Assembly: GCA_964603095.1 (NCBI GenBank)
Contig: CAZRTR010000001.1
Coordinates: forward strand, 8,723-72,722
DNA from: an uncultured Planctomycetia bacterium
GTDB lineage: Bacteria > Omnitrophota > Gorgyraeia > 1-14-0-20-64-10
Direction of reading: 5' to 3'
Length of the DNA: 64,000 nt
The notes beneath the pieces are model-generated. The model was not told the origin of the DNA, made no database searches, and worked only from the letters and a program-made list of their open reading frames with translations. Positions 39,804 through 63,830 of the stretch are shown here, in pieces (positions within the stretch are counted from its first letter, which is position 1; each line of letters begins with the position of its first letter). The position numbers were made by a program, and so were the translations under genes.

Positions 39804-40543
39804 CGGAGAAGCTCCAGAACCCGCTGCATGTCGGCCCAGACGAGGGATTTGGCCGACGGATTGCGCAGCAGATAGGCCGGATGGAACGTCACGATCACCG
39901 GGATCTCTTTCCAGAGGAAGGTTTTCCCCCGCAGCCGGGCCATCGGTTGCTCCGTCTCCAGCAGGGTCGCGGCGGCCGTCCTCCCCAGAGCGCAGATCAC
40001 CTTGGGGCGGATCGTCTCGAGCTGGTTCTCAAGATAGCCGGAGCAGGCGGCCACCTCATCCGGCTCCGGAGGGCGGTTCATCGGAGGGCGGCATTTCACC
40101 ACATTGGTGATGTAGACCGATTCCCGGGTCAGTTTCATCGCCTGGATGATCTTCGTCAGGAGCGCCCCGGCCGCCCCCACAAAGGGACGTCCTTGTTCGT
40201 CTTCGTCCCTGCCCGGCCCTTCCCCCACGAAGACAAGAGCGGCATCCAATGCTCCCTCTCCGAAGACGACCCGGTGGCGGGTCTTATGCAGCCGGCATGC
40301 TCGGCATTGGAGAGCGCGCCGACGGATCGGTTCGAGCCGAACGGCCTTGGAGGGTGGGGGGTCCCGCTTCCGCTCGGAGGCGACGGAGGGAAGGTCCGAA
40401 ACCCCCTCCAGCGCCAGGGATTCGACCAGCCGACGGGTTTTCCGGACGAGAGAAGAGAGCTCCCTCCTCGAAGCTTCTCGGCCGCGAAGCGGCCCATCAA
40501 GGAATGTCCTGAGCGGAGCGAAGGGCCTTCGCTCAGATTCCAT
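39800..40543 (-). CDS. uracil-DNA glycosylase, family 4
   Basis: GEGPG...RPFVGAAG and a four-Cys Fe-S cluster pattern. It probably has a short N-terminal over-extension. Confidence 0.8.
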   Translation of the reverse strand: MESERRPFAPLRTFLDGPLRGREASRRELSSLVRKTRRLVESLALEGVSDLPSVASERKRDPPPSKAVRLEPIRRRALQCRACRLHKTRHRVVFGEGALDAALVFVGEGPGRDEDEQGRPFVGAAGALLTKIIQAMKLTRESVYITNVVKCRPPMNRPPEPDEVAACSGYLENQLETIRPKVICALGRTAAATLLETEQPMARLRGKTFLWKEIPVIVTFHPAYLLRNPSAKSLVWADMQRVLELLR

Positions 40544-41650
40544 CGAGGATCCGTTGGGCGATCTGGGAGGCGGCGGCGGGTCGGCGGATCTCCTGGGACC
40601 TTCGGCTCAGATGTTCCAGCTCCTCGGGATGGTCCAGGAGGTGTTGGACGACCCCGGGAACCTGGGGGACCGATTTCGCCCACAGGGCGGCTCCCAGTTG
40701 AACCAGCACCTGGGCGTTGCGGGACTCCTGTCCGGGAATGGGAGAGACGAGCAAGAGAGGCAGCCCCTTGGCCAGGGCCTCGGCGCAGGTCAAGCCCCCC
40801 GCCTTGGTGACGATCAGATCGGAGACCGACATCAGCTCATCCATGTTGGAGATGAACCGGTAGACCTGCATCGGATGAGGGAATCGGTTTTTGAGGGCCT
40901 CGCACCGTTGGTACAGAAGGTCGTTGGTTCCCGCCACCACCAGCAGCTGGATTCGACCGGTCACCTTGCCCAACACATCCACCAGGGCCGGAATCGGCCC
41001 GGTCCCGGATCCTCCCGACCCGATCAGGAGGATGAACCGATCCGGCTCCAGCCCCAGCCGCCGCGCCAGCGCCGAGCGGTCATGGGAAAGGGAAAACTTC
41101 GGATCCACCGGGATTCCAAGCAGTTCAATCTTCCCGGAAGGGATTCCCCGGCGCAGCAGATCCTCCTTCGCCTGCGAGGAGCCGACCACGTAGGTGTCGA
41201 TGCCCGGCACCACCCAGAGGGCGTGGGGCAGATAATCGGTGATCACCGTCACGAGCCGGGCCGAAATCCGCCGGCTCTCCTTCAAATGGGCCGCCACCTC
41301 CATCGGGAGGAAATGGGTTCCGACGATCACCTCGGGCCGGGCGTTGAGGAGGATCGCCTCCAGCCCCCGCGCGTGCCGGCTGTTGCTGGTCCGGTGGAGC
41401 CACCGCACACCCCTTCGCAGGGTCGACAGGTCGGTCAAGTGATAAAGGATCCCCCAGATCTGTGGGGCCTGCTGGATGAGCCAAAGGTATCCTCGGGTAA
41501 AGCACCAGCGGTACCAGGGGTTTACCCCTTCCAAGGCGTTCAAAAGAACCACCTCGGCAGATCCCGAAGACCCCTTCAGGGATTGGGCGACCACCTCCGC
41601 GGCCCGTTGGTGTCCCGCCCCGGCCGGCACATGCGTGACAAGAATCTTCA
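40533..41650 (-). CDS. MGDG-synthase / UgtP-like diacylglycerol glycosyltransferase (GT28)
   Basis: VKILVTHVPAGAGH N-terminal domain plus a Glyco_tran_28_C-like C-terminal domain. A GTG start is assumed; the annotated ORF is over-extended to 41924. Confidence 0.65.
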
Positions 41651-42247
41651 CCCGGTCTCGCCCTTGGAGTTCCTTTGCTGACGCAGGATCCACCGAACCG
41701 CCTGGGGCAGGCCCTGGGCGATTCGGTCCGGAGAGACGGACAGCCGCCGAGCGGTGGACCTGGAGTGACGACCGGACAGGACCAGGACCGTGCGGCAGCC
41801 GCCGGATCGCCCCATCCGGATATCGACCTCGCTGTCCCCCACCAGGAAGGACCGCTTCAGATCGACGGCGAACCGCCGGGCCGCCTTCCGGAGCATCCCG
41901 GAGCGGGGTTTTCGGCAGGGGCATCCGTTTTCCGGGCGGTGGGTGCAGTAATAGACGGCCTGGATCCGGCCTCCCGCCTTTCGGATGGAGCGGAGCATTT
42001 CCCGGGTGATGGAGGTCAACCGTTGCCGGGGAAAGATCCCTCGACCCACACCGGACTGATTGGACAGGACAATCACCTTTTTCCCCCGCTCCTTCAGCAA
42101 CCGCAGGGCCTCCAGCGCGCCGGGGAGGAAGCGGAACTGCTTCCAGTCAGTGATGTACCGCTCTTGCGGGCAGGCGTTGATCACCCCGTCCCGGTCGAGG
42201 AAAATCGCCCCGTGGCTCTTCCCGTCACGCGCGGGGGCTCGACTCAT
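41648..42247 (-). CDS. gmhB: D-glycero-D-manno-heptose 1,7-bisphosphate phosphatase
   Basis: HAD-IIIA motifs (FLDRDGVIN, VLSNQSG) and a zinc-binding CxH...CxC (CTHRPENGCPCRKP). Confidence 0.8.
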   Translation of the reverse strand: MSRAPARDGKSHGAIFLDRDGVINACPQERYITDWKQFRFLPGALEALRLLKERGKKVIVLSNQSGVGRGIFPRQRLTSITREMLRSIRKAGGRIQAVYYCTHRPENGCPCRKPRSGMLRKAARRFAVDLKRSFLVGDSEVDIRMGRSGGCRTVLVLSGRHSRSTARRLSVSPDRIAQGLPQAVRWILRQQRNSKGETG

Positions 42248-43217
42248 GCGCAGTGGAGTGGGGTTTCACCTTGACTCGCCAATAGTCGAGGAGATCCTGC
42301 ATCGTCTTTTCGAAGGGGATCTCCGTCTTCCACCCCGTCAGCTGATGAAACTTGGTCCGGTCCCCCTTCAGGATCAGCACATCGCTGGGGCGAAGGCGCT
42401 GCGGATCCACCGCAACGGTGATCTTATGGGAGGTCAACCGGAGCAGAGTCTCCAGAACGTCACGGATGGAGCGGTCGACTCCCGAGCAGAGGTTATAAAC
42501 CTCTCCGGGTTTCCCGTGTTCCAGCGCCAGCCAATATCCGCGGACGATGTCCCGCACATCGCTGAAATCACGTCGGGCATCCAGATTTCCCACTTGGATG
42601 ACCGGCTCCTGGAGTCCGGCCTCGATCAGGGCGATCTGTTTTGCGAAGTTGGAGGTGGCGAAGACCTCTCCTCGACGGGGCCCCGTGTGGTTGAAGGCCC
42701 GGGTGCGGACGATGTGCATCTTGAAGCTTTGGGCATACTGGTAGCCCAGGAGGTCCTGGGTGACTTTGGAAACGGCGTAGGGGCTTAAGGGGCGCAGAGG
42801 GTTCGTCTCTTTGATGGGCAGCTCCTCCTCGTAGACCAGCCCGTACTCTTCCGAGCTTCCGGCCACCTGAATCCGTGTGGGCAGTCCGCATTCCCGGACG
42901 GCCTCCATGAGGTTGAGCTGTCCCAACGTGTTGGTCAACAGGGTCTCGGAGGGGGCGCTCCAGGACATCGGGACGAACGATTGAGCGGCCAGATGAAACA
43001 CCCGATCCGGTTTGACCGCCACGATCACGTTCCGAACGGAGGAGGCGTCCCGCACGTCGCACTCGTGCATCTGGATCCGATGCCGGAGATGCTCGATGTG
43101 GTCGGTCTTGCTGCGCCAGCGCTGAGTCCCAAAGATCTCGACCCCCTTCTGCTGGAGAAGAAACTCCGTCAAATGGCTTCCGACGAAGCCGGTGATTCCG
43201 GTAATCAAGACGCGCAT
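42225..43217 (-). CDS. NAD-dependent NDP-sugar epimerase/dehydratase (GDP-mannose-dehydratase/Rmd-like)
   Basis: MRVLITGITGFVGSHL, the YAVSK catalytic motif and C-terminal SDR-extended features. Only the last roughly 330 aa of the 738-aa annotated ORF look real. Confidence 0.75.
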   Translation of the reverse strand: MRVLITGITGFVGSHLTEFLLQQKGVEIFGTQRWRSKTDHIEHLRHRIQMHECDVRDASSVRNVIVAVKPDRVFHLAAQSFVPMSWSAPSETLLTNTLGQLNLMEAVRECGLPTRIQVAGSSEEYGLVYEEELPIKETNPLRPLSPYAVSKVTQDLLGYQYAQSFKMHIVRTRAFNHTGPRRGEVFATSNFAKQIALIEAGLQEPVIQVGNLDARRDFSDVRDIVRGYWLALEHGKPGEVYNLCSGVDRSIRDVLETLLRLTSHKITVAVDPQRLRPSDVLILKGDRTKFHQLTGWKTEIPFEKTMQDLLDYWRVKVKPHSTAHESSPRA

Positions 43218-44821
43218 GTGGACTCCTGTTGTTCCCAGACCTTCGCCCAGATCATGAAATGGACAAAACTGTACAGCCCGCAGAAGATCAGGCCTACCTT
43301 CCCTTCCCGGAAACCCTGTTTCTTGACGTACAGCTTCCAGAAAAGCTTCAAGGGCCGGATCCTCATCTGGGCACGCAGCTCCGACTCCGGAACCCTCTGT
43401 CGCTTTTCCAGGATCTCTTGGGCCTCCAGAGAGGTGTATCGGTTTTGCCGGCTTAAGAACTGTTCCAGCGACTGGAAGGGGAGATGCTCCACGGGGGCCT
43501 CCAGGACTCCGATGGAACCGTCCACGATCAGATCGTGGTGGACCCGCCCCCGGTAGAAGGCCTTCCCCCTCCGAAACAGGTGAAGCGAATAATGATACCA
43601 CCCTCCGTGCCGCATCCAGCGCCCCAGAAAACGGTTCTTCCTCCGGAACCGGAAGGCGGCATACGGTGTGGAGTCGCTGAGCATCTCCTCCGCCGCCCGA
43701 CGGAATTCGGGCGTCACCCGGTCGTCCGCGTCCAGCTGGAGGATCCAGTCCTTCGTGGCCTGCGCGTTGCCGATGTTCCGTTCCTGCCCGAAATCCCCCT
43801 CGAAACGGTGGGTGATCACCTTCGCTCCATAGGAGCGACAGATCTCCGGGGTTCCGTCCGAGCTTTCCCCGTCCACCACGATGATCTCGTCCGCCCAGCG
43901 GACCCGTTCCAGGCACTGGGCGATCTGCGCCGCTTCGTTCTTCGTCAGAATCACGACGGACAGCGTGGCCCGGGAGGTGGCTGAGCTCTTCGTTCTCTCT
44001 GGACCCTCCCTCCCCTGTTCCCCGTCCCCTCTCCCCTGCTCCACCGCCCCCTGTTTCAGATGCCAGACCTTGGCGTAGCTTAGGAACTGGTACATCCCCG
44101 CCAGGACCGCGACGACGAATCCTAAGATGCCGTCTTTGTACCCCTCCTTGCCGCGATAGCTGCGCAGGAAGCGGTCCAGCGACCGCCAAAGGGCCTTGGG
44201 CGCCGTCATCCGCCTGCCGTCCAGGATCCATTTCTGGGCCTCCAGGGTGGTCTGCCGATTCAGCTTCTCGACAAAATCGGCCAGATCCCGGTAGGAATAG
44301 TGGAGGATGTCCCCTTTCAGGGTTCCCCAGGGCCGGTCCGTCAGCGCCCGGGGGTGAACGGTCGTCTCTTCCCAACGGAACAGGGATCGCCGGAACAGCT
44401 TCACCTGGGCGCTGGGGTACCAGCCCCCGTATCGGATCCATCGGTTTCCGATGTAGTTGCGTCGGGGGATCGAGTAGACGTCCTGTTCCGGTCCCCGATC
44501 AAAGAGGGCCCGGATCTCTCCGGCCAGCTCCGGGCTGACCCGCTCGTCGGCGTCCAGACTGAGGATCCAGTCGTGCTTGGCTTGGGCGTAGGCCCAGTTC
44601 CGATGGCGTCCTTCGATGTCCATCCGACGCTGGAAGATCCGATCGGTGTAACGCCGCGCCACCTCCAGGGTGCGATCGGTCGATTCGTCATCCACCACAA
44701 CGATCTCGGTTGCCCAGGAGACCGAGTCCAGGCACTCGGCCAGGCGCCCGGCTTCGTTTTTGGTCAGGACGACGACCGAGAGCGGCAATGAAATTACCGC
44801 AGGAAGTGGTCGCGTCTCCAT
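43205..44821 (-). CDS. tandem-duplicated GT2 glycosyltransferase (two WaaE/KdtX-like domains fused)
   Basis: Two collinear GT2 modules (LSVVVLTKNEA...ILSLDADERV and LSVVILTKNEA...ILQLDADDRV) are joined by a Gly/Glu/Arg-rich linker. The start is trimmed to METRPL/MSDTV. Confidence 0.7.
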   Translation of the reverse strand: METRPLPAVISLPLSVVVLTKNEAGRLAECLDSVSWATEIVVVDDESTDRTLEVARRYTDRIFQRRMDIEGRHRNWAYAQAKHDWILSLDADERVSPELAGEIRALFDRGPEQDVYSIPRRNYIGNRWIRYGGWYPSAQVKLFRRSLFRWEETTVHPRALTDRPWGTLKGDILHYSYRDLADFVEKLNRQTTLEAQKWILDGRRMTAPKALWRSLDRFLRSYRGKEGYKDGILGFVVAVLAGMYQFLSYAKVWHLKQGAVEQGRGDGEQGREGPERTKSSATSRATLSVVILTKNEAAQIAQCLERVRWADEIIVVDGESSDGTPEICRSYGAKVITHRFEGDFGQERNIGNAQATKDWILQLDADDRVTPEFRRAAEEMLSDSTPYAAFRFRRKNRFLGRWMRHGGWYHYSLHLFRRGKAFYRGRVHHDLIVDGSIGVLEAPVEHLPFQSLEQFLSRQNRYTSLEAQEILEKRQRVPESELRAQMRIRPLKLFWKLYVKKQGFREGKVGLIFCGLYSFVHFMIWAKVWEQQESTCAS

Positions 44822-45927
44822 TAACGCGGACCCGACGCAGAGCGGGACAGTGTCCGACATTGGCTCAGAACCTCTTGCGCCGTCGGCTGTTCGAGGAGCC
44901 GGGCGCGGTGGAGCCCCTTCAAGCGGGTGACCCATCCGGACCAGGCCGGGTCTTGACTGATGACCAGGTCGTACGGCTTCTTCCTTTTCCAGAGGAGTCG
45001 AAGCAGCGCCCGGCGGCGCCAGTTGAGCGGTGTGGCGTCCAAGCGGCTGACCTGGGCGTGCGAGGCGATTTCCCGAGGGAGGGCCTCCGGCGGCCCCACA
45101 AAGCAGAACCAGTGTCCCTGTTCCAGCAGCTGAAGCACCTGAGGGACGGGGATCGGAGCCGGCGAGGAGGGGGCCGGCAGGGGGGCCCAGAGGATCCTCA
45201 GGCGGCGGCCCCACCGCTGCTCGAAACGCCTGCGGTTGGCCTCAAAGTCCCGCTTCCACCCTGGGAGAAGACGGAAACTGGCCTTCTCGTCATGATGCAC
45301 GTAGGCGGCACAGGCCCGTGCGCAGGTCAGCCCCTCATCCCGGGCCCGCCGCGACAGGTCGTCGTCGTCAAAGTTCCCCATCCCGAACGATTCATCCAGA
45401 AACCCGATCCGCTCAAACAGGGAGCGCCTCGCCAGCAGGCAGAATCCCAGGGCCGTGGAGAGCTCCGTCCAGCGGCCCGACTCGGCCTTGAGACCGGCGG
45501 CGTAATCCGCCAACGGGGTCTTCCCCGGATGGAATCCTAGAGAGTTGCTCGTGGGGTTCACCAGACCGATCTTCGGGTCGCTCCGAGCGACCTTCAGCAT
45601 CTCGGTCAGCCACCCGGGCGTGACGATCGTATCGTTGTTGAGCAGGCAAACCCATGGGCCTCGCGAGCATCGGAGCCCCTGGTTGCTTGCCCGGATGAAC
45701 CCCAGGTTGGAGTCGTTTCGGATGATCTGCGTCGGAAGACGGCTCTCGGCTTGGAATTGATCGAGCGCCCGGCGGGTGGGAGGTTGGCTTCCATTGTCCA
45801 CCAGGATCAGCCGGATCGGCTCCTCGGTGGAGGCCAGGACGCTCTCCAGGCATCGCTTCGTCAGCTCGAGCTGATTCCAGATGGGGATGATGATGTCACA
45901 GGTCGCGGCGTCAGAGGCGGCCGTCAT
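44821..45927 (-). CDS. GT2 glycosyltransferase with a roughly 130-aa C-terminal extension
   Basis: CDIIIPIWNQ...ILVDNGS...LLNNDT are GT-A fold motifs. Confidence 0.75.
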   Translation of the reverse strand: MTAASDAATCDIIIPIWNQLELTKRCLESVLASTEEPIRLILVDNGSQPPTRRALDQFQAESRLPTQIIRNDSNLGFIRASNQGLRCSRGPWVCLLNNDTIVTPGWLTEMLKVARSDPKIGLVNPTSNSLGFHPGKTPLADYAAGLKAESGRWTELSTALGFCLLARRSLFERIGFLDESFGMGNFDDDDLSRRARDEGLTCARACAAYVHHDEKASFRLLPGWKRDFEANRRRFEQRWGRRLRILWAPLPAPSSPAPIPVPQVLQLLEQGHWFCFVGPPEALPREIASHAQVSRLDATPLNWRRRALLRLLWKRKKPYDLVISQDPAWSGWVTRLKGLHRARLLEQPTAQEVLSQCRTLSRSASGPR

Positions 45928-52167: not shown

Positions 52168-52180
52168 CAGGGGCTACGCC

Positions 52181-53161: not shown

Positions 53162-53175
53162 GAAAGAGGAATTCG

Positions 53176-58105: not shown

Positions 58106-59144
58106 GGAGCGGCTTCGGAGAACCCAAGCGGATGGGGTCCATCTCCTTCTTGTAGTAGGCGATGACGCTTTCCAAGATGTCGCTCAGATTCATGGTCGGA
58201 GTGAAGCCGACGAAGCGCTTCGCCTTGGAGATATCCGGAACCCGCCGGGCCATATCTTCAAAACCTTCCTCATAGGCCTGATCGTAGGGAATGGTGACGA
58301 TGGATGAGCGGCTTTCCGTCCGTTGGATGACCAGTTGGGCGAGACGTTCGATGGTGACCTCCTCCTGGCTTCCGAGGTTAAACGCCTCGCCGGCTGTGCT
58401 GGGCAGTTCCATCAGTCGAACGATGGCCTCGACGGCGTCCTGGACATGAAGAAAACAACGGCTCTGTCTTCCGTCTCCGTAGACGGTCAACGGTTCCCCC
58501 CGCAGGGCTTGTTGAACGAATCGGGGGATAACCATCCCGTAGGCCCCTGTCTGACGGGGCCCGACGGTATTGAACAGCCGGACGATGACCGTCGGGATCC
58601 CTTTCTCTTTCCAGTAGGTATAGGCCAAGATTTCGTCCACCGCCTTGGAAGTCGAGTAGGCCCACCGGCTCTTTAAGGGGGATCCGAGAATTCGGTCCTC
58701 ATCCTCTCTCAGAGGGCCGTTGGCGTTCTTTCCGTAGATCTCGGAGGTGGAGGTGATCAACACCTTCTTCCGATAGCGGTACGCCATCTCCAGGACCGTC
58801 TCCGAGCCCCGAATGTTGGTCGTGAGGGACTCCAGGGGGTGCTTGACGATCAGCTCCACCCCCACGGCCGCCGCCAGGTGGAACACCCCGTCCACCCGTT
58901 CCACGAGCTTGTCCACCAAGGTTTCGTTGAGGATGGATCCGGTCACCAGATGGAAGGAGGGGTTTTCTTGCAGGTGGGCGACGTTCTCCAGGCGGCCCGT
59001 GGAAAAATTGTCCAGCGCCGTCACGTCGTCTCCTTGACGAAGGAGAGCTTCCGCCAGATGAGAACCGATAAAACCGGCTCCTCCCGTAACCAAGATCTTG
59101 CGGGGTGTCATCGTCACTGTTTTCTCGCGATGATTATAACTCAA
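58092..59144 (-). CDS. UDP-glucuronate decarboxylase / UDP-xylose-synthase-like SDR (ArnA C-terminal-domain-like)
   Basis: ILVTGGAGFIGSHL, ALDNFSTG, YSTSK catalytic triad region. It closely resembles the UXS/ArnA decarboxylase subfamily. The start may be an internal M at about 59111. Confidence 0.75.
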   Translation of the reverse strand: MSYNHREKTVTMTPRKILVTGGAGFIGSHLAEALLRQGDDVTALDNFSTGRLENVAHLQENPSFHLVTGSILNETLVDKLVERVDGVFHLAAAVGVELIVKHPLESLTTNIRGSETVLEMAYRYRKKVLITSTSEIYGKNANGPLREDEDRILGSPLKSRWAYSTSKAVDEILAYTYWKEKGIPTVIVRLFNTVGPRQTGAYGMVIPRFVQQALRGEPLTVYGDGRQSRCFLHVQDAVEAIVRLMELPSTAGEAFNLGSQEEVTIERLAQLVIQRTESRSSIVTIPYDQAYEEGFEDMARRVPDISKAKRFVGFTPTMNLSDILESVIAYYKKEMDPIRLGSPKPLHERE

Positions 59145-60364
59145 ACCTTCCCTTTCTCCTGCTGCAATTGTTCATAGAGTAGAGAGATATCCTTCAGGAG
59201 CCGTTGAGATGGGAACCTCTGAAGGGCATACGCTCTGGCCGATTCCCCAAGCGATTTTCGAAGCTCCGGCTGCCGGCCCAACGTCTGAAGGGCCGAGGCC
59301 AGGCCTTCCGCGTCTCCCGGGCGGACCATGACCCCGCGAGAGGTCAGCCGGAATGTCCCTGGAGAGATTTCCCGGTTTCGCTCCGAGGGTTCTTCCAGCA
59401 GATCCGGGACTCCTCCGACCTGCGTAGCAACCACCGACCTGCCTGCGGCCATCGCCTCGATCAGCGAGAGAGGGGTCCCTTCGTTCCACGAGGTGAGACA
59501 GACCAGATCCAGTTTCCCATAGATGGGGAGAAGGTCATGCTGCCAGCCGGTGAACCGAATGGAGGAGGCCAGGCCCCGCCGCATCGTCTCCCTTTCCATC
59601 TCTTGCCGAAGAGGCCCATCCCCCACCACCGTTGCCTGAAAGGAGATGGTTGGATCTCTCTGACGAAGCAGGGAGGCGGCCTCCAGGAAAAGAAGGGGAT
59701 TCTTGATCGGCGCCAGGCGCCCCACGAGCCCGCACCGTAAGCCGACAGTTCGAGGTGTTCCATTCAGCGGAAGTCGGGCGTAGCGGTCCAGGCCGAGCCC
59801 CAGAGGGATCACGCGCCACTGGTGGGGGCGTCCGATCCCCTTCCGGAGCAGGTCATCCCGAATTGCGGGACTGACGGCGATCAGACAGTCCGTGTGACGG
59901 GCCAGCCATCGTTCGATGGAAAGGAAGGTCTGTGAAGTGCAGCTGGAGAAGTAACCCTCCAGGACGTGGCCGTGGAAGGTATGGATCAGCGTTGCCCCGG
60001 CCCCTCTTCTGCGGCCGGGGCCGAAACGGTTGTACGCCAGGCCGGCCAGGCGGCCCAGAGAACCGGCCTTGGCCATGTGGGTATGAAGGATCTGGGGCCG
60101 TTCCTTCCACAGGAGTCGAAGAAGTCGAGCCAAGGAAAGGAGATCGGACACGGGCCGGAGCGATCGGCGCAACGTTTTCATCCGGACGATCCGAGGGATG
60201 GAATCCGGCAGGAGGGGACTGTAATCCCCTTCCCTTTCCTCCGGCTGGCCAAAGACCAGGCAGGTGGTGAACCGTTGAGGGTCAAGGGACGAGGAGAGAA
60301 TGGATGCATGGATCGCCGGCCCTCCGATGTTCAAACGGGTCAGGATCCGAACAATTCGTATCAC
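59141..60364 (-). CDS. GT4 glycosyltransferase
   Basis: GT-B fold with the C-terminal EX7E region (LTSWNEGTPLSLIEAMAAG). Confidence 0.8.
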   Translation of the reverse strand: MIRIVRILTRLNIGGPAIHASILSSSLDPQRFTTCLVFGQPEEREGDYSPLLPDSIPRIVRMKTLRRSLRPVSDLLSLARLLRLLWKERPQILHTHMAKAGSLGRLAGLAYNRFGPGRRRGAGATLIHTFHGHVLEGYFSSCTSQTFLSIERWLARHTDCLIAVSPAIRDDLLRKGIGRPHQWRVIPLGLGLDRYARLPLNGTPRTVGLRCGLVGRLAPIKNPLLFLEAASLLRQRDPTISFQATVVGDGPLRQEMERETMRRGLASSIRFTGWQHDLLPIYGKLDLVCLTSWNEGTPLSLIEAMAAGRSVVATQVGGVPDLLEEPSERNREISPGTFRLTSRGVMVRPGDAEGLASALQTLGRQPELRKSLGESARAYALQRFPSQRLLKDISLLYEQLQQEKGKV

Positions 60365-60386
60365 GGGCGGGAACCGGCTCAGGGGC

Positions 60387-62144
60387 TCATCCGAAATCCC
60401 AGAGAGATTTTTCCTCTTCGAAGGGATAGATGACGACCAGGCCGTCCGCCAAGGCGCCTTGGGTGTCCACGGAGAAGGCCCTTCGAGCGGGGAGGTAGGG
60501 GTTCCCCTGGCCTCTGTTAAACAGGTCTGTCCGTTCTTGTGGGCTTAAGACCCGTTTCCAGACGGCGACCTCATCGATCCGGCCGTTCATGAATCCTTGA
60601 TTGGAATCGAAGTTGGAGTAATAGCCGATCCTCAGGTCGTAGGTGCTGTCATAGCTGGAGACGCCTGGGGGAAGCTCCAGCCCCTTCGGATCGATCGGCT
60701 GGTCGTTGACCTGGATGTGGATCGTGTTTCGATTCGGTCCCCGGGTATCGTGCCAGGCCACGATGAAGTACCAGGACCCGGTGGCCACCGGGCCGATTCC
60801 TTCCATCGGTATGGTTCGGCCATCGAAGCCGTTTCCCACAGCGAATTGAAAGTGGTCCTCCCCGGGGAGATATCGAAGGAGATACTCATTGGTGGAATTC
60901 CGGCTGGAATCCCCCTTGCTTAAGAAAATCATCTCATCTTTGCTGTCCAGATAAACCCAGGCGGCAATGGTGAAATCGATATCCCCCATGCTCAGATCGG
61001 GGCTGTCGGGCAACCAGAGATACTGGGCGCGTTCCCTTTGAAACTGGGCGGCCAGACCGATCTTCCCTGGAGCGCAGGTGACGGTGTGATGGTCCCTCAG
61101 GCGGTTCCGGTGGCGCCGGGGAGGGGCCACGCTGGAGCGATCGGGAAGACGCAGGTGCTTCAGGCGCTTTGAGGCGGAGGAGAAGAAACCGGCCCTCCAA
61201 TTCTTTTCCTCCACCGCGGCGACCCAAACCACCTGGGGGAAGTTGGACATGGCCTTGAGCCATTGGGAGCTTTCCTGGCCCGCCGAGGCGATCAGGATGA
61301 CCTGCTGTTGCGCGGCGTAGCCCACCGTGTCGATCAAGCTCTGGGATTTCCACCACCCCCCGAGGTTCAGGTTGACGATGTTCGCCCCCTGGCCGACGGC
61401 GTAGACGATCGCTTCGCACAGGGTGGCGGTGGAGAGCCAGGGGCCGTTTCCCACCCGCAGCGGCAGGAGGGAGATCTCCGCCTCCCGGCTTCCGGAGATG
61501 ACTCTCCCCACGGCCTCCATCCCCCGCGCCTTGAATTCCCCCTCTCCTAGAGGGTCCGGGTCCCGCTCATAGAAATCGTAGCCCTGAAAGTCGTCGACGT
61601 AACCGTTGCCGTCGTTGTCGAAGCCGTCTCCCGGAATCTCCCCCTGATTGACATGGAGCCGCTTCCAGAAATAGGGATGTTTCAGATCAAAGCCGATGTC
61701 CAGAACGGCGACGGTCGTCCCGGAAGCCGCCGCTTGTCCGCTTACCGCCGCCGCTCCACGGGAGGAGACAGACTGGTCGAAGGCAGGGAGCTGGTAGTTC
61801 GGCTCCGCATAGAGGATGGAAGGGTGCGCTTGAAGCTGCTGGACCACCGTCCCCACCTGCCGGGAGGCGGGGAAGGTCAACAGATACAGGCCCCACGGGG
61901 CCAGCTCCTTGTTGACCGTGACGTTGCACTCCCGGGCGATCTCCTTCATCTGGGCCAGGGAGGTTTCGAGTGAAAACCGGGCGAGGACCTGACCTGAAAC
62001 CGGTGAAGGAGGGTTATCGGGTAGGGCCAGGGGAAGCGGAGTCGTTCGGCCCGAGACTTCCCCCACCCATCCCCAGACCCAGGAGAGTCCTCCCAGCAAC
62101 AGGAGCAGCCCGAAGATGCGCAGGAATCGTTTTTGAGTAAGCAT
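60387..62144 (-). CDS. subtilase-LamG paralog with a degenerate catalytic triad (probable pseudo-peptidase)
   Basis: Collinear with 56285..58105, including NDGNGYVDD, but His is replaced (KARGMEA), Asn becomes Gln (SAGQES) and the Ser motif is not recognisable. The LamG domain is intact (DFTIAAWVYL...GRIDEVAVWKRVLSPQE). It has a signal peptide and no C-terminal TM helix. Confidence 0.65.
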   Translation of the reverse strand: MLTQKRFLRIFGLLLLLGGLSWVWGWVGEVSGRTTPLPLALPDNPPSPVSGQVLARFSLETSLAQMKEIARECNVTVNKELAPWGLYLLTFPASRQVGTVVQQLQAHPSILYAEPNYQLPAFDQSVSSRGAAAVSGQAAASGTTVAVLDIGFDLKHPYFWKRLHVNQGEIPGDGFDNDGNGYVDDFQGYDFYERDPDPLGEGEFKARGMEAVGRVISGSREAEISLLPLRVGNGPWLSTATLCEAIVYAVGQGANIVNLNLGGWWKSQSLIDTVGYAAQQQVILIASAGQESSQWLKAMSNFPQVVWVAAVEEKNWRAGFFSSASKRLKHLRLPDRSSVAPPRRHRNRLRDHHTVTCAPGKIGLAAQFQRERAQYLWLPDSPDLSMGDIDFTIAAWVYLDSKDEMIFLSKGDSSRNSTNEYLLRYLPGEDHFQFAVGNGFDGRTIPMEGIGPVATGSWYFIVAWHDTRGPNRNTIHIQVNDQPIDPKGLELPPGVSSYDSTYDLRIGYYSNFDSNQGFMNGRIDEVAVWKRVLSPQERTDLFNRGQGNPYLPARRAFSVDTQGALADGLVVIYPFEEEKSLWDFG

Positions 62145-63069
62145 CGGTTTGAGATTGCGCTGGATGGCCCCTATTATAGCATTTTAAAGACTCCAAGTAA
62201 TCTCGGACGGTCAAGAATCGGATGTCGGGGAATGCGGCCATCGTTCGGAAAAGGGCCACCTGATCTTCCTGCACGCGCCGCCAGTCGTGCTCGAAGAGGA
62301 GGTATCGAAATTCGAACCCGTAGGTTTGTGAAGGCCTCAGGTACTTCCAGGACCATTGGGCCTTGCGCTGTCTGCCCCGCTGTGCGTTGAGATCCTCCGC
62401 GTGGAAGACGAAGACGATCGGCTTGCCCGTGAGCCGGCTCTCCCCATGGAGGACCCGGAAGAACCACCGCATGAACCCTAAGCCCAGCAACCGTTCCGAG
62501 TTGGAGACGAACGGAAGGATCCAGGCCGACACGGGAATCTCCCAGAGCCGGCCGTTTCCCTTTCGGTACGGGTTGGACCACGAGGGATGATAAGGAAGGC
62601 GGGGGGCCCACAGGGGAGCCAGATTCGTGATGTCGGATCCGAGAGCCCCGAGTCGCTGGGAATTGACCGAAAGATCGGCCCGATAACCCAGCCCCTCCAG
62701 GATCCTCATCGTTTGCCCCGAAACCTTGAAGGCGGGGGCTCGAAAACTGATCGGCGGCTCTTCCAACAGACGACTCAACCGCTCGGTGGCCTGTTGAAGG
62801 AACCGTTCCTGCCGTGAAACCGGAAGCCGGCTGTAGATCTCGGAGGGATCATGGGTCAACCCGTGACATCCGATCTCGTGGCCTTCCCTCCGCAGCCCAT
62901 CCACCTGCCCCCGGAGCATCTCCGCCGATTCGGCCGGGAAGAAGAAGGTGCAGGGCAGCCGCGTCTCGCGGAGGATTTGACGGGCCGACTGGAGGTCCCG
63001 ATCGACCTGCTCCGCCCCAGCGGTGTGGGTGTGGATATCGCAGGTCAACAGAACCGGCACCTCCGTCAT
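62014..63069 (-). CDS. polysaccharide deacetylase (CE4 family; ArnD-like candidate)
   Basis: LLTCDIHTHT..., GHEIGCHGLTHD is a NodB-domain His/Asp pattern. The start is trimmed to MTEVPVL. The 3' end overlaps the next gene by about 130 nt. Confidence 0.7.
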   Translation of the reverse strand: MTEVPVLLTCDIHTHTAGAEQVDRDLQSARQILRETRLPCTFFFPAESAEMLRGQVDGLRREGHEIGCHGLTHDPSEIYSRLPVSRQERFLQQATERLSRLLEEPPISFRAPAFKVSGQTMRILEGLGYRADLSVNSQRLGALGSDITNLAPLWAPRLPYHPSWSNPYRKGNGRLWEIPVSAWILPFVSNSERLLGLGFMRWFFRVLHGESRLTGKPIVFVFHAEDLNAQRGRQRKAQWSWKYLRPSQTYGFEFRYLLFEHDWRRVQEDQVALFRTMAAFPDIRFLTVRDYLESLKCYNRGHPAQSQTDAYSKTIPAHLRAAPVAGRTLLGLGMGGGSLGPNDSASPGPTR

Positions 63070-63830
63070 GGTTTCTCCGCGGAGACGATCCAGATGCCGG
63101 CCATCCTCCGGATCCCCGGGATCGGCTCTGCGATCCGGTCGATTCCCTTGAACAGCCAGAGCCACGAGGCCGGCGCCACGGTGGGGGTGAAGAGGAAACT
63201 GCGCGCCCGGCTGTTTTGGAAGCCGGACTGGGCGAGGAGGGACAGAAGTTGCGGTTCGGTGAACCAGTGGTCGTGGGGATGCGGTTCACTGCCGAGCACC
63301 TGTTTGAGATAAAACCAGGGGCACCACCGGTTGGGGAAATCGGCCACCAACCGGCCTCCCGGCTTTAAGACCCGACGGGCGCTCCGCAACGCCCGATCCA
63401 CTCTTGGAAGATAACGGAAAGTGGAGAAGGAGACCGCCCCATCAAATGCGTTGGATGGAAACAGATCCAGGGATTCGGCATCATCGATGAAGAAAGAGGC
63501 CCGATCCAACCCTTCCTGCCGCGCCCGTCGCTTGGCCACCTCCACGGAATGGGGGGACAGATCGATCCCCGTCATCCGGTATCCCCGGCGAGCGAGGGGA
63601 AGGGAGAATTGACCCACCGAGCAGCCGATCTCCAGAAGATGGCTTCCCGGTGGGAATGCCCCCAGTTCCAGAGCCGCTTGAAGCTTCCGGGATCGGAAGT
63701 AGGCCTTCGCGGGGCTTACCTCTTCATACGTTCCCTGGCCCCGGAACTCCCGCTCCGAGAAACGGTCGTACCGCCGCTGAATCTCCGCCTTGATCCGGGC
63801 GTCCACGGAGGTCGGCGGATTTAGATCCAT
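63066..63830 (-). CDS. class I SAM-dependent methyltransferase
   Basis: LLEIGCSVGQF motif I, VLKPGGRLV. Confidence 0.78.
   Translation of the reverse strand: MDLNPPTSVDARIKAEIQRRYDRFSEREFRGQGTYEEVSPAKAYFRSRKLQAALELGAFPPGSHLLEIGCSVGQFSLPLARRGYRMTGIDLSPHSVEVAKRRARQEGLDRASFFIDDAESLDLFPSNAFDGAVSFSTFRYLPRVDRALRSARRVLKPGGRLVADFPNRWCPWFYLKQVLGSEPHPHDHWFTEPQLLSLLAQSGFQNSRARSFLFTPTVAPASWLWLFKGIDRIAEPIPGIRRMAGIWIVSAEKP

What the first reader, a model, noticed from the sequence alone, without database searches (positions are those of the whole stretch)
40533..63830. 23-kb envelope glycan/LPS locus with an Arn-like module (ArnC-like, ArnT-like, UXS/ArnA-decarboxylase-like, two CE4 enzymes) and four SAM methyltransferases
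Besides classic LPS-core genes (gmhB, two GT9 heptosyltransferases, a WaaL-like ligase, a WecA-like initiator), the cluster contains several enzymes resembling the lipid A aminoarabinose (Arn) pathway.

- A polyprenol-phosphate GT2 (ArnC/DPM1-like, 46762..47730).
- An ArnT/PMT-type membrane glycosyltransferase with the DE loop motif (48526..50085).
- A UDP-glucuronate decarboxylase (UXS/ArnA C-terminal-domain-like, 58092..59144).
- A CE4 enzyme (ArnD belongs to this family, 62014..63069).

There is no ArnB aminotransferase and no formyltransferase domain. Instead there are four class-I SAM methyltransferases, one with a zinc ribbon.

This predicts lipid-linked transfer of a neutral, possibly methylated pentose (xylose or arabinose) to lipid A, core, or a protein acceptor, rather than canonical L-Ara4N. 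The pathway would not be one of the textbook ones.
Basis: inference. Interest (0 to 1): 0.7.

Follow-up and report, generated by a model that had tools for sequence, protein, structure and literature searches.

The report
Omnitrophota LPS operon with methyltransferase-linked glycosylation module
This is a real, long cell-envelope sugar (LPS-type) gene cluster from an uncultured Omnitrophota bacterium; it is not an aminoarabinose-like pathway, but it carries a three-gene unit (membrane glycosyltransferase, methyltransferase, lipid-sugar synthase) that recurs in many phyla and has, as far as I could find, not been described.

Summary
The locus is real: 20 co-directional, mostly overlapping minus-strand genes (40533-63830). 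In the source contig it continues at least 10 kb beyond the window.

The annotation is mostly right. The UXS, two GT9s, GmhB, the WecA-like and WaaL-like genes, a GT-C with a DE loop and a zinc-ribbon methyltransferase are all confirmed. Inside the stated coordinates, however, there are three methyltransferases and one CE4, not four and two.

The Arn analogy holds only at the level of general mechanism.
- The GT2 is much closer to GtrB (233 bits) than to ArnC (120 bits).
- The CE4 is not ArnD-like and lies 12 kb from the GT-C.
- There is no ArnB.
- The only formyltransferase is housekeeping Fmt.

Across 79 related genome loci, UXS travels with WecA: 13 of 14 close loci have both, usually 12-99 bp apart, and one lacks both. 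It does not travel with the GT-C/GT2 pair. A lipid-linked pentose is therefore unsupported, though not excluded.

The most interesting part is the GT-C/methyltransferase/polyprenyl-phosphate GT2 triad. The methyltransferase family is 53-60% identical across phyla. It sits beside such GT2s and polytopic GT-C proteins in 17 of 25 well-flanked metagenome loci.

Verdict: an LPS core/O-unit operon with a methyltransferase-coupled periplasmic glycosylation module. Moderate interest.

The parts
63066..63830 (-). Class-I SAM methyltransferase, 254 aa. It overlaps the CE4 start by 4 bp.
   Evidence: Methyltransf_11 83.7 bits. Only generic NCBIfam hits.
62014..63069 (-). CE4 polysaccharide-deacetylase-like protein, 351 aa.
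   Evidence: Polysacc_deac_1 48.4 bits, weak DUF3473. Best NCBIfam hit is the XrtA-system polysaccharide deacetylase, far below its cut-off; no ArnD hit at E <= 1e-5.
60387..61949 (-). Secreted subtilase-like (S8) plus LamG/concanavalin-like protein, 520 aa. Probably catalytically dead.
   Evidence: Peptidase_S8 (partial), Laminin_G_3 and the Fervidolysin prodomain. The HGT motif reads RGM, and the Pfam match stops before the Ser region.
59141..60364 (-). GT4 (GT-B) glycosyltransferase, 407 aa.
   Evidence: Glyco_trans_1_4 99.9 bits, Glyco_trans_4_4 82 bits. Sits next to UXS or WaaL in sister loci.
58092..59111 (-). UDP-glucuronate decarboxylase (UXS), 339 aa from the ATG at 59111.
   Evidence: Human UXS1 215 bits against 128 for ArnA and 135-139 for the chains named as epimerases. 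The residue alignment shows STSEIYG, YSTSK and RLFNTVGPRQ. Orthologues are 74-80% identical.
56285..58009 (-). Second subtilase-like plus LamG protein, 574 aa. Paralogue of 60387-61949.
   Evidence: Pfam. 43% identity to the first copy.
54477..56288 (-). WecA/MraY-family polyprenyl-phosphate HexNAc-1-P transferase, fused to a C-terminal membrane plus CoA_binding_3 region like the N-terminus of WbaP-type transferases. 603 aa.
   Evidence: Glycos_transf_4 116.6 bits, CoA_binding_3 38.3 bits. TIGR02380 matches residues 21-319 and TIGR03025 matches residues 364-591.
53176..54480 (-). Wzy_C family protein (WaaL-like ligase, or a polymerase), 434 aa.
   Evidence: Wzy_C 77.7 bits against a cut-off of 31.7. 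Fused to a GT4 in L003.
52181..53161 (-). GT9 glycosyltransferase (heptosyltransferase family).
   Evidence: Glyco_transf_9 77.7 bits. Heptosyltransferase II/III models score 92 bits, below their cut-offs.
51061..52167 (-). GT9 glycosyltransferase (heptosyltransferase family).
   Evidence: Glyco_transf_9 81.8 bits.
50082..51074 (-). SAM methyltransferase with an N-terminal CxxC...CxxC zinc ribbon, 330 aa.
   Evidence: Methyltransf_23 97.7 bits. Sequence CPLCGS...CLSCS. Among the genome loci with a GT-C relative, a close copy (72%) occurs only in L012; other hits are weak.
48526..50085 (-). GT-C fold membrane glycosyltransferase, 519 aa, with a periplasmic C-terminal alpha/beta domain.
   Evidence: PMT_2 scores only 20 bits, below its cut-off. 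No PDB sequence hit. AF2 pLDDT 87.9. Best Foldseek hit is ArnT 5F15, E 1.3e-7, TM 0.55. Invariant motifs LWQDEAETA, MRQCRYY and RY.
47720..48529 (-). SAM methyltransferase of the 'HWWFxxRR' family, 269 aa. It overlaps both neighbours.
   Evidence: Methyltransf_23 48.6 bits. More than 2300 relatives, 53-60% identical across phyla. Linked by synteny to polyprenyl-phosphate GT2s and GT-C proteins.
46762..47730 (-). Polyprenyl-phosphate glycosyltransferase (GtrB/ArnC/DPMS class GT2) with two C-terminal TM helices, 322 aa.
   Evidence: Synechocystis GtrB 233 bits, ArnC 120 bits. PgfS 185 bits against ArnC 130 bits. Catalytic residues are conserved except D157->T and W207->V. TM helices at 234-292.
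45911..46765 (-). Divergent GT2-like protein, 284 aa. The best conserved glycosyltransferase of the block.
   Evidence: Glycos_transf_2 29.7 bits. 57-75% identical in sister loci.
44821..45927 (-). GT2 glycosyltransferase, 368 aa.
   Evidence: Glycos_transf_2 94.8 bits.
43205..44860 (-). Tandem double-GT2 protein, about 537-551 aa.
   Evidence: The translation shows two 'VVILTKNEA...DDxSxD' GT2 units. NCBIfam finds two stretches.
42225..43217 (-). GDP-6-deoxy-4-keto-hexose reductase (Rmd)-like SDR, 330 aa.
   Evidence: PDB 2PK3 299 bits, GDP-heptose 4,6-dehydratase 214 bits, GMD 189 bits.
41648..42247 (-). GmhB heptose-1,7-bisphosphate phosphatase.
   Evidence: NF006506 173 bits against a cut-off of 178. 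HAD-IIIA domain models are above their cut-offs.
40533..41693 (-). GT28 glycolipid (MGDG/diglucosyl-DAG) synthase-like protein, 386 aa. Positionally conserved, and perhaps not part of the LPS pathway.
   Evidence: MGDG_synth 89 bits, Glyco_tran_28_C 54 bits. NF010135 198 bits, below its cut-off.

Best explanation
The region is one long, translationally coupled operon for LPS core or lipooligosaccharide-type envelope glycan synthesis in an Omnitrophota bacterium. It is built from three sub-modules.

(A) An undecaprenyl-diphosphate-linked unit. UXS, the WecA-like initiator, the WaaL-like Wzy_C protein and a GT4 belong here. UDP-xylose made by UXS is most likely used by a cytoplasmic Leloir glycosyltransferase (inferred).

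(B) Core assembly. GmhB, two GT9 enzymes, several GT2 enzymes and an Rmd-like reductase for a 6-deoxy sugar belong here.

(C) A periplasmic decoration module of three overlapping genes.
- The GtrB-class GT2 loads a sugar from a nucleotide sugar onto polyprenyl phosphate at the cytoplasmic face.
- The adjacent soluble SAM methyltransferase probably acts on that same cytoplasmic intermediate. SAM is not available in the periplasm, so this is the only place where a sugar added in the periplasm could be methylated (inferred).
- After flipping, the GT-C transfers the sugar to lipid A-core or to another envelope acceptor. No flippase is encoded in the locus.

Shown: the gene identities, the fold of the GT-C, conservation of the GT2 catalytic residues, and the synteny patterns. 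Inferred: the acceptor, the identity of the sugar, and the substrate of the methyltransferase.
For: Operon structure: 4-14 bp overlaps at GT9b/MT, MT/GT-C, GT-C/MT and MT/GT2 (coordinates).

Source and extent: the window matches an Omnitrophota MAG, GCA_947085735.1 (100% identical GT-C on its contig). The cluster continues 10 kb upstream with more glycosyltransferases and a second GT-C.

Synteny in 17 sister loci with a GT-C at least 50% identical:
- The order is [GT4]-UXS-WecA-WaaL-[GT4]-GT9-GT9-GT-C-[MT-GtrB or short GT2]-GT2-GT2-diGT2-GmhB.
- UXS and WecA are both present in 13 of the 14 loci with enough upstream flank. They are 12-99 bp apart in 11 of those 13.
- Both are absent in L022, where the GT-C block remains.

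The GT-C partner:
- The GT-C is followed either by MT plus a GtrB-type GT2 or by a ~241-aa GT2. Two of these (L009, L022) were scanned, and their best NCBIfam hits are PpgS, PgfS and ArnC, i.e. polyprenyl-phosphate sugar synthases.
- The GT-C fold prediction has pLDDT 87.9, and ArnT is the top structural hit.
- The GT2 keeps GtrB residues D94, D96, Q98, D99, R122, R125 and R197 (residue roles from PMC12698845 and PMC12690121).

The methyltransferase family:
- In three unrelated genomes it lies next to a GT2 and a PMT_2- or YfhO-type protein.
- Of 25 metagenome loci with at least 2.5 kb on both sides, 18 have a polyprenyl-phosphate-type GT2 within 1.5 kb, 22 have a protein with at least 8 TM helices within 4 kb, and 17 have both.
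- 7 of 10 sampled polytopic neighbours hit GT-C Pfam families.
Against: - No experiment exists for any of these proteins, and Omnitrophota LPS has not been analysed chemically (one search found nothing).
- The acceptor is unknown. Relatives of the GT-C at 32-35% identity occur as tandem paralogues in Chloroflexota/Anaerolineae. These are generally held to lack LPS (my own knowledge), so the family is not tied to LPS.
- The methyltransferase link rests on synteny only. Its predicted fold matches generic class-I methyltransferases. 7 of the 25 well-flanked loci show no adjacent GT2 by my detection.
- No flippase gene and no UDP-glucose dehydrogenase were found in the window or in the 10 kb upstream.
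- The GT9 and WaaL assignments are at family level only. The equivalog models score below their cut-offs.
Confidence: 0.55

Rival explanations
1. UXS makes UDP-xylose (or UDP-arabinose after epimerisation). The GT2 loads this neutral pentose onto undecaprenyl phosphate, the methyltransferases methylate it, and the GT-C transfers it to lipid A, core or a protein. This would be an Arn-like pathway without the amino group.
For: - The UXS is genuine, lies in the same operon, and is conserved throughout the close clade.
- There is no ArnB or ArnA-NTD.
- A polyprenyl-phosphate GT2 plus a GT-C is present.
- A cytoplasmic methyltransferase is tightly coupled to the GT2.
- There is a precedent for a xylose-derived sugar on a lipid carrier made by a GT2: M. 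tuberculosis mtxS/Rv0539 (PMC12088412).
Against: - UXS lies 8-10 kb from the GT-C/GT2 pair. In sister genomes it abuts WecA and is missing together with WecA in L022.
- UXS persists where the GtrB-type GT2 and the methyltransferase are absent (L009, L017, L021).
- None of 62 loci with more distant GT-C relatives has a UXS (33 of them have enough upstream flank to judge), and none of 83 methyltransferase-family loci does either.
- The GT2 is closest to a UDP-glucose enzyme, GtrB.
- No UDP-xylose 4-epimerase was identified.
- No paper mentions an undecaprenyl-phosphate-xylose donor.
- The operon holds many Leloir glycosyltransferases that could use UDP-xylose directly.
Confidence: 0.12
2. An amino-sugar lipid A modification of the Bordetella LgmABC or Francisella Flm type (comparison from my own knowledge). 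The GT2 makes undecaprenyl-phosphate-HexNAc, the CE4 deacetylates it, and the GT-C adds GlcN or GalN to lipid A phosphate.
For: - A polyprenyl-phosphate GT2, a GT-C and a CE4 share one operon.
- This route needs neither an aminotransferase nor a formyltransferase, which matches their absence.
- The short GT2 that takes the place of the GtrB type in sister genomes scores best to PpgS, a polyprenyl-phospho-GalNAc synthase.
Against: - The CE4 is 12 kb away, separated by nine genes.
- Its best NCBIfam match is the XrtA-type polysaccharide deacetylase, with a weak DUF3473 hit.
- No CE4 lies within 10 kb of the GT-C in any sister locus.
- The gene between the GT-C and the GT2 is a methyltransferase, not a deacetylase.
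Confidence: 0.08
3. The GT-C does not act on LPS at all. Instead it glycosylates a secreted or membrane protein (PMT- or TMTC-like) or another envelope polymer. It sits in the operon only for co-regulation.
For: - The only Pfam hit is PMT_2.
- Family members occur in Chloroflexota and in contexts without GT9, WaaL or WecA relatives nearby.
- The methyltransferase/GT2 pair is joined to TPR-bearing PMT-type GT-C proteins in large genomes that may be planctomycetes.
- Two secreted S8/LamG proteins are encoded in the same operon.
Against: - In Omnitrophota the GT-C directly follows a GT9 gene in all 17 close loci, and a GT9-like gene sits just upstream of it in several more distant ones (L025, L032, L033, L040, L041, L043).
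- The S8/LamG genes are present only in the window and in L012.
- ArnT is the best structural match.
Confidence: 0.15

Closest known systems
Gtr-type three-component periplasmic glucosylation (GtrA flippase, GtrB Und-P-glucose synthase, GtrC-type GT-C) of Shigella/Salmonella O antigens, and its Gram-positive counterparts (CsbB/GtcA/YfhO)
   Same: - A GtrB-class GT2 with two C-terminal TM helices. It scores 233 bits to Synechocystis GtrB, and the DxD, Q and Arg catalytic residues are conserved.
- It is next to a GT-C fold transferase.
- The context is an LPS locus.
   Different: - No GtrA-like flippase gene.
- A SAM methyltransferase sits between the two enzymes.
- GtrB D157 and W207 are replaced by T and V.
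- The GT-C belongs to a separate family with LWQDEAETA and MRQCRYY signatures and has no sequence hit in the PDB.
Arn pathway (ArnA, ArnB, ArnC, ArnD, ArnT, ArnE/F): L-Ara4N modification of lipid A
   Same: - The general logic is shared: decarboxylase-family SDR, polyprenyl-phosphate GT2, GT-C.
- ArnT is the best structural match to the GT-C (E 1.3e-7, TM 0.55).
   Different: - No ArnB.
- No ArnA formyltransferase domain. The only formyltransferase is Fmt next to def.
- The SDR is of UXS type, 215 against 128 bits.
- The GT2 scores 130 bits against the ArnC cut-off of 529.
- The CE4 is not ArnD-like.
- No ArnE/F.
- The genes are scattered over 17 kb.
Pentofuranose three-component systems of O antigens: PRPP-dependent polyprenyl phosphoribose synthase, MATE flippase and a GT136 GT-C (Kelly et al. 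2024, PMC11127046)
   Different: - That donor comes from PRPP through a dedicated polyprenyl phosphoribose synthase, not from a UDP-sugar through a GT2 (PMC11127046).
- No Pfam family suggesting such a synthase, and no MATE transporter, appeared in the locus.
- UXS makes a UDP-pentopyranose (established knowledge of the family).
Mycobacterial PpgS/Rv3779 (GalN on arabinogalactan) and MtxS/Rv0539-Rv0541c (methylthioxylofuranose caps on LAM)
   Same: - A small polyprenyl-phosphate GT2 is paired with a GT-C for an unusual sugar.
- The ~241-aa GT2 that takes the place of the GtrB-type enzyme in sister Omnitrophota scores best to PpgS.
- mtxS makes the lipid donor of a xylose-derived sugar (PMC12088412).
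   Different: - The scores are far below the family cut-off (85.6 against 370 bits).
- The envelope type is different.
- The role of Rv0541c as the GT-C is from my own knowledge and was not checked here.
Rhizobium RgtA-E system (GalA added to LPS core and lipid A from dodecaprenyl-phosphate-GalA); named from my own knowledge
   Same: ArnT-like GT-C enzymes, an ArnC-like GT2 and an SDR acting on UDP-GlcA work within LPS core biosynthesis.
   Different: - That SDR is a 4-epimerase. The one here groups with decarboxylases.
- No sequence comparison with Rgt proteins was possible with these tools.

Membership tests
Arn (L-Ara4N) pathway | ArnB: PLP-dependent DegT-type aminotransferase acting on the UDP-4-keto-pentose | tested here: not met
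   No DegT_DnrJ_EryC1 hit in any scanned gene of the window or of the 10 kb upstream. The only aminotransferase is the class-III ArgD-type enzyme in the arginine operon.
Arn (L-Ara4N) pathway | ArnA N-terminal formyltransferase domain | tested here: not met
   The only formyltransferase (36302-37291) passes the Fmt equivalog TIGR00460 (278.7 bits against 201.5). It scores 160 bits against the ArnA cut-off of 777. It adjoins def.
Arn (L-Ara4N) pathway | ArnC orthologue | tested here: not met
   NF007986 scores 130 bits against a cut-off of 529. GtrB scores 233 bits against 120 for ArnC in the PDB.
Arn (L-Ara4N) pathway | ArnD deformylase | tested here: not met
   The CE4 gives no ArnD hit at E <= 1e-5. 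Its best hit is the XrtA-type deacetylase at 38 bits.
Arn (L-Ara4N) pathway | ArnT (GT83) transferase | tested here: inconclusive
   Fold-level similarity only: Foldseek E 1.3e-7, TM 0.55, 15% identity. No NCBIfam hit. PMT_2 scores 20 bits against a cut-off of 26.1.
UDP-glucuronate decarboxylase (UXS) | Closest to characterised UXS rather than to ArnA-CTD, AXS, 4-epimerases or 4,6-dehydratases | tested here: met
   Human UXS1 scores 215 bits. An unnamed SDR (8VR2) is next at 157.7; the chains named as epimerases score 135-139; ArnA 127-130; UDP-apiose/xylose synthase 128; dTDP-glucose dehydratases at most 126.
UDP-glucuronate decarboxylase (UXS) | Catalytic T/S-x-E, YxxxK and the conserved FNTxGPR Arg | tested here: met
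   STSEIYG, YSTSK and RLFNTVGPRQ align with human UXS1 STSEVYG, YDEGK and RIFNTFGPRM.
UDP-glucuronate decarboxylase (UXS) | Enzymatic conversion of UDP-GlcA to UDP-xylose; supply of UDP-GlcA by Ugd | not testable with these tools
   No Ugd in the window or in the 10 kb upstream.
Polyprenyl-phosphate glycosyltransferases (GtrB/ArnC/DPMS class) | GT-A domain with the DxDLQ(D/N) motif, Arg residues that bind the acceptor phosphate, and two C-terminal TM helices | tested here: met
   The motif reads DGDLQD. R127, R130, R137 and R201 match GtrB R122, R125, K132 and R197 (PMC12698845). TM helices at 234-264 and 270-292.
Polyprenyl-phosphate glycosyltransferases (GtrB/ArnC/DPMS class) | UDP-glucose specificity (strict GtrB orthology) | tested here: inconclusive
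   233 bits to GtrB, but D157->T and W207->V. The papers read here gave no residues that determine sugar choice.
Gtr-type three-component system | GtrA-family small flippase encoded with the pair | tested here: not met
   There are no unassigned gaps or small membrane ORFs in the tightly packed operon.
GT-C fold glycosyltransferases | Polytopic membrane domain with an acidic (D/E) motif in the first extracytoplasmic loop; GT-C fold | tested here: met
   D30 and E31 are invariant in 26 sequences. The model has pLDDT 87.9 and pTM 0.90. The top 40 Foldseek hits are all GT-C enzymes: ArnT, ALG12, ALG9, STT3/PglB/AglB, AftD, AftB, Emb, DPY19 and Pmt4.
Pentofuranose three-component systems (GT136) | PRPP-dependent polyprenyl phosphoribose synthase and a MATE flippase | tested here: not met
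   Neither kind of family appeared among the Pfam hits for the 20 genes of the locus.
LPS core heptosyltransferases (GT9) | Glyco_transf_9 domain; equivalence to WaaC, WaaF or WaaQ | tested here: inconclusive
   The Pfam domain is above its gathering score (77.7 and 81.8 bits against 22). The heptosyltransferase II equivalog scores about 91 bits against a cut-off of 134.6.
O-antigen ligase WaaL | Wzy_C domain; ligase rather than polymerase activity | tested here: inconclusive
   Wzy_C scores 77.7 bits against 31.7. RfaL scores 28 bits against 277. Ligase and polymerase cannot be told apart by sequence here.

The most novel reading that the evidence does not exclude
The GT-C/methyltransferase/polyprenyl-phosphate GT2 triad (48526-50085, 47720-48529, 46762-47730) is one local copy of a widespread, undescribed pathway.

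- A highly conserved soluble SAM methyltransferase would O-methylate a polyprenyl-phosphate-linked sugar on the cytoplasmic face.
- A lineage-specific GT-C would then deliver the pre-methylated sugar to an envelope acceptor outside the cytoplasm.
- That acceptor would be LPS core in Omnitrophota and other glycans or proteins in Planctomycetota and Chloroflexota.

Probability: 0.25. Interest if true: 0.6.

Novelty: new variant of a known kind. Interest (0 to 1): 0.38.

Why it matters
Periplasmic decoration of envelope glycans from polyprenyl-phosphate sugars (Arn, Gtr, Lgm, Rgt, the mycobacterial systems) governs antibiotic resistance, serotype and host recognition. As far as I know, none of the characterised systems includes a dedicated methyltransferase.

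If the conserved methyltransferase acts on the lipid-linked sugar, that would explain how methylated sugars can end up at positions that are added outside the cytoplasm. It would also give a simple three-gene marker for finding such modifications in many uncultured phyla.

For Omnitrophota, whose envelope chemistry is unknown, the locus predicts:
- a heptose-containing core;
- a short WecA-primed unit, probably containing xylose and a 6-deoxy sugar;
- one periplasmically added decoration.

The specific 'Arn without nitrogen' idea should not be carried forward without biochemical evidence.

Tried and rejected
- An exact-sequence look-up of the GT2 found nothing. The GT-C look-up succeeded instead.
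- A PDB sequence search with the GT-C gave no hit even at E = 10, so I predicted the structure and ran a fold search.
- I tried to read the sugar specificity of the GT2 from GtrB and ArnC structural papers. Only catalytic and lipid-phosphate residues are defined there. The D157 and W207 differences say it is not a strict GtrB orthologue, but not which sugar it uses.
- The fold search with the methyltransferase model returned only generic class-I methyltransferases: CFA synthase, TleD and the sugar O-methyltransferase RebM. No substrate could be assigned.
- Literature searches for Omnitrophota LPS, for an undecaprenyl-phosphate-xylose donor and for a methyltransferase/GtrB/GT-C module found nothing relevant.
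- I considered and rejected the formyltransferase at 36302-37291 as a missing ArnA-NTD. It is Fmt.
- I considered and rejected the CE4 plus methyltransferase pair at 25602-27164 as part of the locus. It lies in an Opp transporter operon 14 kb away.
- I considered the 42225-43217 SDR as a GDP-mannose dehydratase. It is closer to the Rmd reductase.

Full report
**1. What is there**

The window has about 62% G+C. From 40533 to its right end, every real gene lies on the minus strand. Pfam and NCBIfam scans of the 20 consecutive ORFs give the following order, from the operon's 5' end:

| Coordinates | Product |
|---|---|
| 63066-63830 | methyltransferase |
| 62014-63069 | CE4 |
| 60387-61949 | S8-like/LamG |
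| 59141-60364 | GT4 |
| 58092-59111 | UXS |
| 56285-58009 | S8-like/LamG |
| 54477-56288 | WecA-like fusion |
| 53176-54480 | Wzy_C/WaaL-like |
| 52181-53161 | GT9 |
| 51061-52167 | GT9 |
| 50082-51074 | zinc-ribbon methyltransferase |
| 48526-50085 | GT-C |
| 47720-48529 | methyltransferase |
| 46762-47730 | polyprenyl-phosphate GT2 |
| 45911-46765 | divergent GT2 |
| 44821-45927 | GT2 |
| 43205-44860 | tandem double GT2 |
| 42225-43217 | Rmd-like SDR |
| 41648-42247 | GmhB |
| 40533-41693 | GT28 glycolipid synthase |

Downstream come UDG and PriA. Many junctions overlap by 4-14 bp, which fits a single translationally coupled operon.

Inside the stated coordinates, though, there are three methyltransferases and one CE4. 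The extra CE4 and methyltransferase pair sits at 25602-27164, inside an oligopeptide-transporter operon.

**2. Source and extent**

The GT-C is 100% identical to a protein on a 73.9-kb contig of an Omnitrophota MAG, GCA_947085735.1. Its relatives that carry a name are called Candidatus Omnitrophica/Omnitrophota proteins.

Looking up the first gene of the window's operon shows what lies beyond position 64000:
- a GT1-DUF218 fusion;
- a second PMT_2-type GT-C;
- a radical SAM/SPASM protein;
- a GT4 and a further glycosyltransferase (Glyco_trans_1_2 family);
- an RmlD-like SDR;
- a TIGR04326-like protein;
- a B12-radical SAM protein.

The glycan locus is therefore at least 33 kb long. Those 10 kb contain no DegT-type aminotransferase and no formyltransferase.

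The rest of the window (1-37 kb) is housekeeping: arginine biosynthesis, ribosomal protein S9, a TonB-dependent receptor, glycolysis and an Opp transporter. One formyltransferase exists at 36302-37291. It passes the Fmt equivalog model (278.7 bits against a cut-off of 201.5) and adjoins def.

**3. The individual 'Arn-like' parts**

*The SDR (UXS).* It scores 215 bits to human UXS1. An unnamed SDR (8VR2) follows at 157.7 bits, then the chains named as epimerases (135-139), ArnA (127-130), UDP-apiose/xylose synthase (128) and dTDP-glucose dehydratases (at most 126). The residue alignment shows the STSEIYG, YSTSK and RLFNTVGPRQ motifs. UXS is accepted. The public gene call of 310 aa cuts off the GxxGxxG motif, so the ATG at 59111 is the likely start.

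*The GT2.* It scores 233 bits to Synechocystis GtrB, an Und-P-glucose synthase, and 120 bits to ArnC. It scores 185 bits to the PgfS model against 130 bits for the ArnC model, whose cut-off is 529. It has two C-terminal TM helices. It keeps GtrB residues D94, D96, Q98, D99, R122, R125 and R197. K132 is replaced by R, D157 by T and W207 by V (residue roles from PMC12698845 and PMC12690121). It is a functional-looking member of the polyprenyl-phosphate glycosyltransferase class, but its sugar cannot be read from the sequence.

*The GT-C.* It has only a sub-threshold PMT_2 hit and no sequence match in the PDB. A confident AlphaFold model (pLDDT 87.9, pTM 0.90) matches ArnT best (E 1.3e-7, TM 0.55), then ALG12, ALG9, STT3/PglB, AftD and Emb. 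D30, E31 and E33 (LWQDEAETA), R140-Y145 (MRQCRYY) and R315/Y316 are invariant in 26 homologues. 'ArnT-like' is correct as a description of the fold, not as a family assignment.

*The CE4.* It resembles XrtA-type polysaccharide deacetylases, and ArnD was not among its hits. It lies 12 kb from the GT-C.

**4. Comparative genomics**

A pattern scan with the GT-C alignment returned 79 genome loci. I compared all the window proteins with these loci by tblastn and phmmer.

In the 17 loci from other genomes whose GT-C is at least 50% identical (all Omnitrophota-type MAGs), the order is conserved:

[GT4]-UXS-WecA-WaaL-[GT4]-GT9-GT9-GT-C-[MT-GtrB-type GT2, or a ~241-aa GT2]-GT2_284-[SDR]-GT2_368-diGT2-[Rmd]-GmhB-GT28-UDG-PriA

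- UXS (74-80% identical) and WecA are both present in 13 of the 14 loci with enough upstream flank. They are separated by 12-99 bp in 11 of those 13. Both are missing in L022, where the GT9/GT-C/GT2 block is intact.
- The GtrB-type GT2 is present in only 9 of the 14 loci with enough downstream flank, and the middle methyltransferase in 7. That methyltransferase is always accompanied by the GtrB-type GT2.
- Where the GtrB-type GT2 is absent, the gene after the GT-C is a soluble ~241-aa GT2 in most loci. The two that I scanned (L009, L022) score best to PpgS, PgfS and ArnC, which are polyprenyl-phosphate sugar synthases. UXS is still present in such genomes (L009, L017, L021).
- None of the 62 loci with more distant GT-C relatives (26-46% identity) has a UXS orthologue. 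These include Chloroflexota with tandem GT-C paralogues, deltaproteobacterial/Desulfobacteraceae MAGs, Planctomycetota and Elusimicrobia.

The GT-C thus always keeps some polyprenyl-phosphate sugar synthase as a partner. That supports a lipid-linked periplasmic transfer. UXS belongs to a different sub-module, the one centred on WecA.

**5. The methyltransferase triad**

The methyltransferase between the GT-C and the GT2 has an N-terminal E-x-HWWF-x-x-RR motif. It belongs to a very large family, with more than 2300 clusters at E < 1e-8. Members from Pirellulales and Dehalococcoidia are 53-60% identical to it, and mean column identity is 65% in a 16-sequence alignment.

Its neighbours in three unrelated genomes are:
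- PMT_2 - MT - GT2 - PMT_2 - ... - PMT_2/TPR
- MT - GT2 - PMT/TPR (921 aa)
- MT - GT2 - YfhO-like

A metagenome scan gave 80 more loci. Of the 25 loci in the combined set that have at least 2.5 kb on both sides:
- 18 have a polyprenyl-phosphate-type GT2 within 1.5 kb;
- 22 have a protein with at least 8 TM helices within 4 kb;
- 17 have both.

Seven of ten sampled polytopic neighbours hit PMT_2 or GT87. No UXS orthologue is present in any of these 83 loci.

The methyltransferase has no signal peptide and no TM helix, so it works in the cytoplasm. Because SAM is cytoplasmic, the simplest reading is that it modifies the sugar before flipping, on the polyprenyl phosphate or on the nucleotide. The GT-C would then deliver a pre-methylated sugar. 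This is inference from synteny. The predicted structure (pLDDT 82) matches only generic class-I methyltransferases.

**6. How it most likely works**

(A) UXS, the WecA-like initiator, GT4 and the Wzy_C/WaaL-like protein build and ligate a short Und-PP-linked unit. UDP-xylose and a GDP-6-deoxy sugar are likely donors; the Rmd-like enzyme scores 299 bits to 2PK3.

(B) GmhB, the two GT9 enzymes and the GT2 set build the core.

(C) The triad adds one, possibly methylated, sugar in the periplasm.

I put 0.55 on this overall picture. I give:
- 0.08 to an Lgm/Flm-like amino-sugar route using the CE4;
- 0.15 to a non-LPS acceptor.

**7. Comparison with known systems**

The module works like the Gtr, Arn, Lgm and Rgt systems and like the mycobacterial PpgS/Rv3779 system. 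It fails the membership tests for Arn:
- no ArnB, no ArnA-NTD, no ArnD, no ArnE/F;
- the ArnC model scores far below its cut-off.

It also lacks the GtrA flippase of Gtr systems.

Documented lipid-linked neutral-pentose additions to O antigens use a PRPP-dependent synthase, a MATE flippase and a GT136 GT-C (PMC11127046). None of these is present here. M. tuberculosis mtxS makes the lipid donor of a xylose-derived sugar (PMC12088412), so a GT2-made lipid-linked pentose is not without precedent. I found no paper on Omnitrophota LPS, on an Und-P-xylose donor, or on a methyltransferase-containing triad.

**8. Verdict**

The locus is an LPS core/O-unit operon, which is a known kind. It carries a new GT-C family and a methyltransferase-coupled variant of the polyprenyl-phosphate-sugar/GT-C decoration system. 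That variant is the part worth following up. Interest is 0.38, and I class it as a new variant of a known kind.

Noticed in passing
window 60387-61949 and 56285-58009 (minus strand): Two paralogous secreted proteins (43% identical) sit inside the glycan operon. Each has a fervidolysin-type prodomain, a partial subtilase domain and a LamG/concanavalin-like domain. The S8 match stops before the catalytic Ser region, and the first copy has RGM where the second has HGT, so they look like pseudo-proteases or lectins. Among sister loci only L012 has one.
   Followed up: partly
window 54477-56288 (minus strand): The WecA/MraY-family initiator is fused to a C-terminal region (residues about 364-591) that matches the N-terminal TM plus CoA_binding_3 part of WbaP/WcaJ-type phosphoglycosyltransferases, but it lacks their catalytic domain. 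The ~600-aa architecture is conserved in sister loci.
   Followed up: no
window 25602-26294 and 26295-27164 (minus strand): A CE4 polysaccharide deacetylase (97 bits) and a class-I methyltransferase are inserted between the ATPase and permease genes of an oligopeptide ABC transporter.
   Followed up: partly
window 34036-35028 and 35021-36082 (minus strand): Two tandem GalT-like genes (galactose-1-phosphate uridylyltransferase family). Both score just above the TIGR00209 cut-off. They lie between gap/pgk/tpi and fmt.
   Followed up: no
L005 1-10000 (same contig, beyond window position 64000): The locus continues with a GT1-DUF218 fusion (618 aa), a second GT-C (PMT_2, 406 aa), a radical SAM/SPASM protein, a GT4 and a Glyco_trans_1_2-family glycosyltransferase, an RmlD-like SDR, a 600-aa TIGR04326-like surface-carbohydrate protein and a B12-binding radical SAM protein.
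   Followed up: partly
L003 5505-7940: In a sister genome the Wzy_C/WaaL-like protein is fused to the GT4 (811 aa). This suggests that the two act together on the same lipid-linked unit.
   Followed up: no
L007 13416-14537 (also L009, L011, L012, L019, L035, L037): Sister loci carry an extra SDR of about 370 aa between GT2_284 and GT2_368. In the one sequence I inspected (L007) it has a CxxC...CxxC zinc-ribbon-like insertion (CSVCGP...CPRCSKP). This SDR is absent from the window.
   Followed up: no
L053-L055, L058, L062, L064 (Chloroflexota/Anaerolineae MAGs): GT-C relatives (32-35% identical) occur as two or three tandem paralogues. About 2-3.5 kb upstream lies a small GT2 (in L054 it scores best to AglJ and dolichyl-phosphate hexose transferase models) plus a ~370-aa SDR (in L054 closest to dTDP-glucose 4,6-dehydratase). 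This is a context without any GT9, WaaL or WecA relative nearby.
   Followed up: partly
window 58092-59144 and 59141-60364; public record CAMTXL010000003.1: The gene calls on record for this contig start UXS 40 codons inside the ORF (310 aa), which removes the GxxGxxG NAD motif. They also shorten the GT4 to 346 aa, although the Pfam GT4 N-domain begins at residue 13 of the 407-aa ORF.
   Followed up: yes
window 42225-43217 (minus strand): The Rmd-like reductase (299 bits to 2PK3) has no GDP-mannose 4,6-dehydratase partner in the window. Its second-best hit is a GDP-heptose 4,6-dehydratase, and it overlaps gmhB, so a 6-deoxy-heptose product is conceivable.
   Followed up: partly
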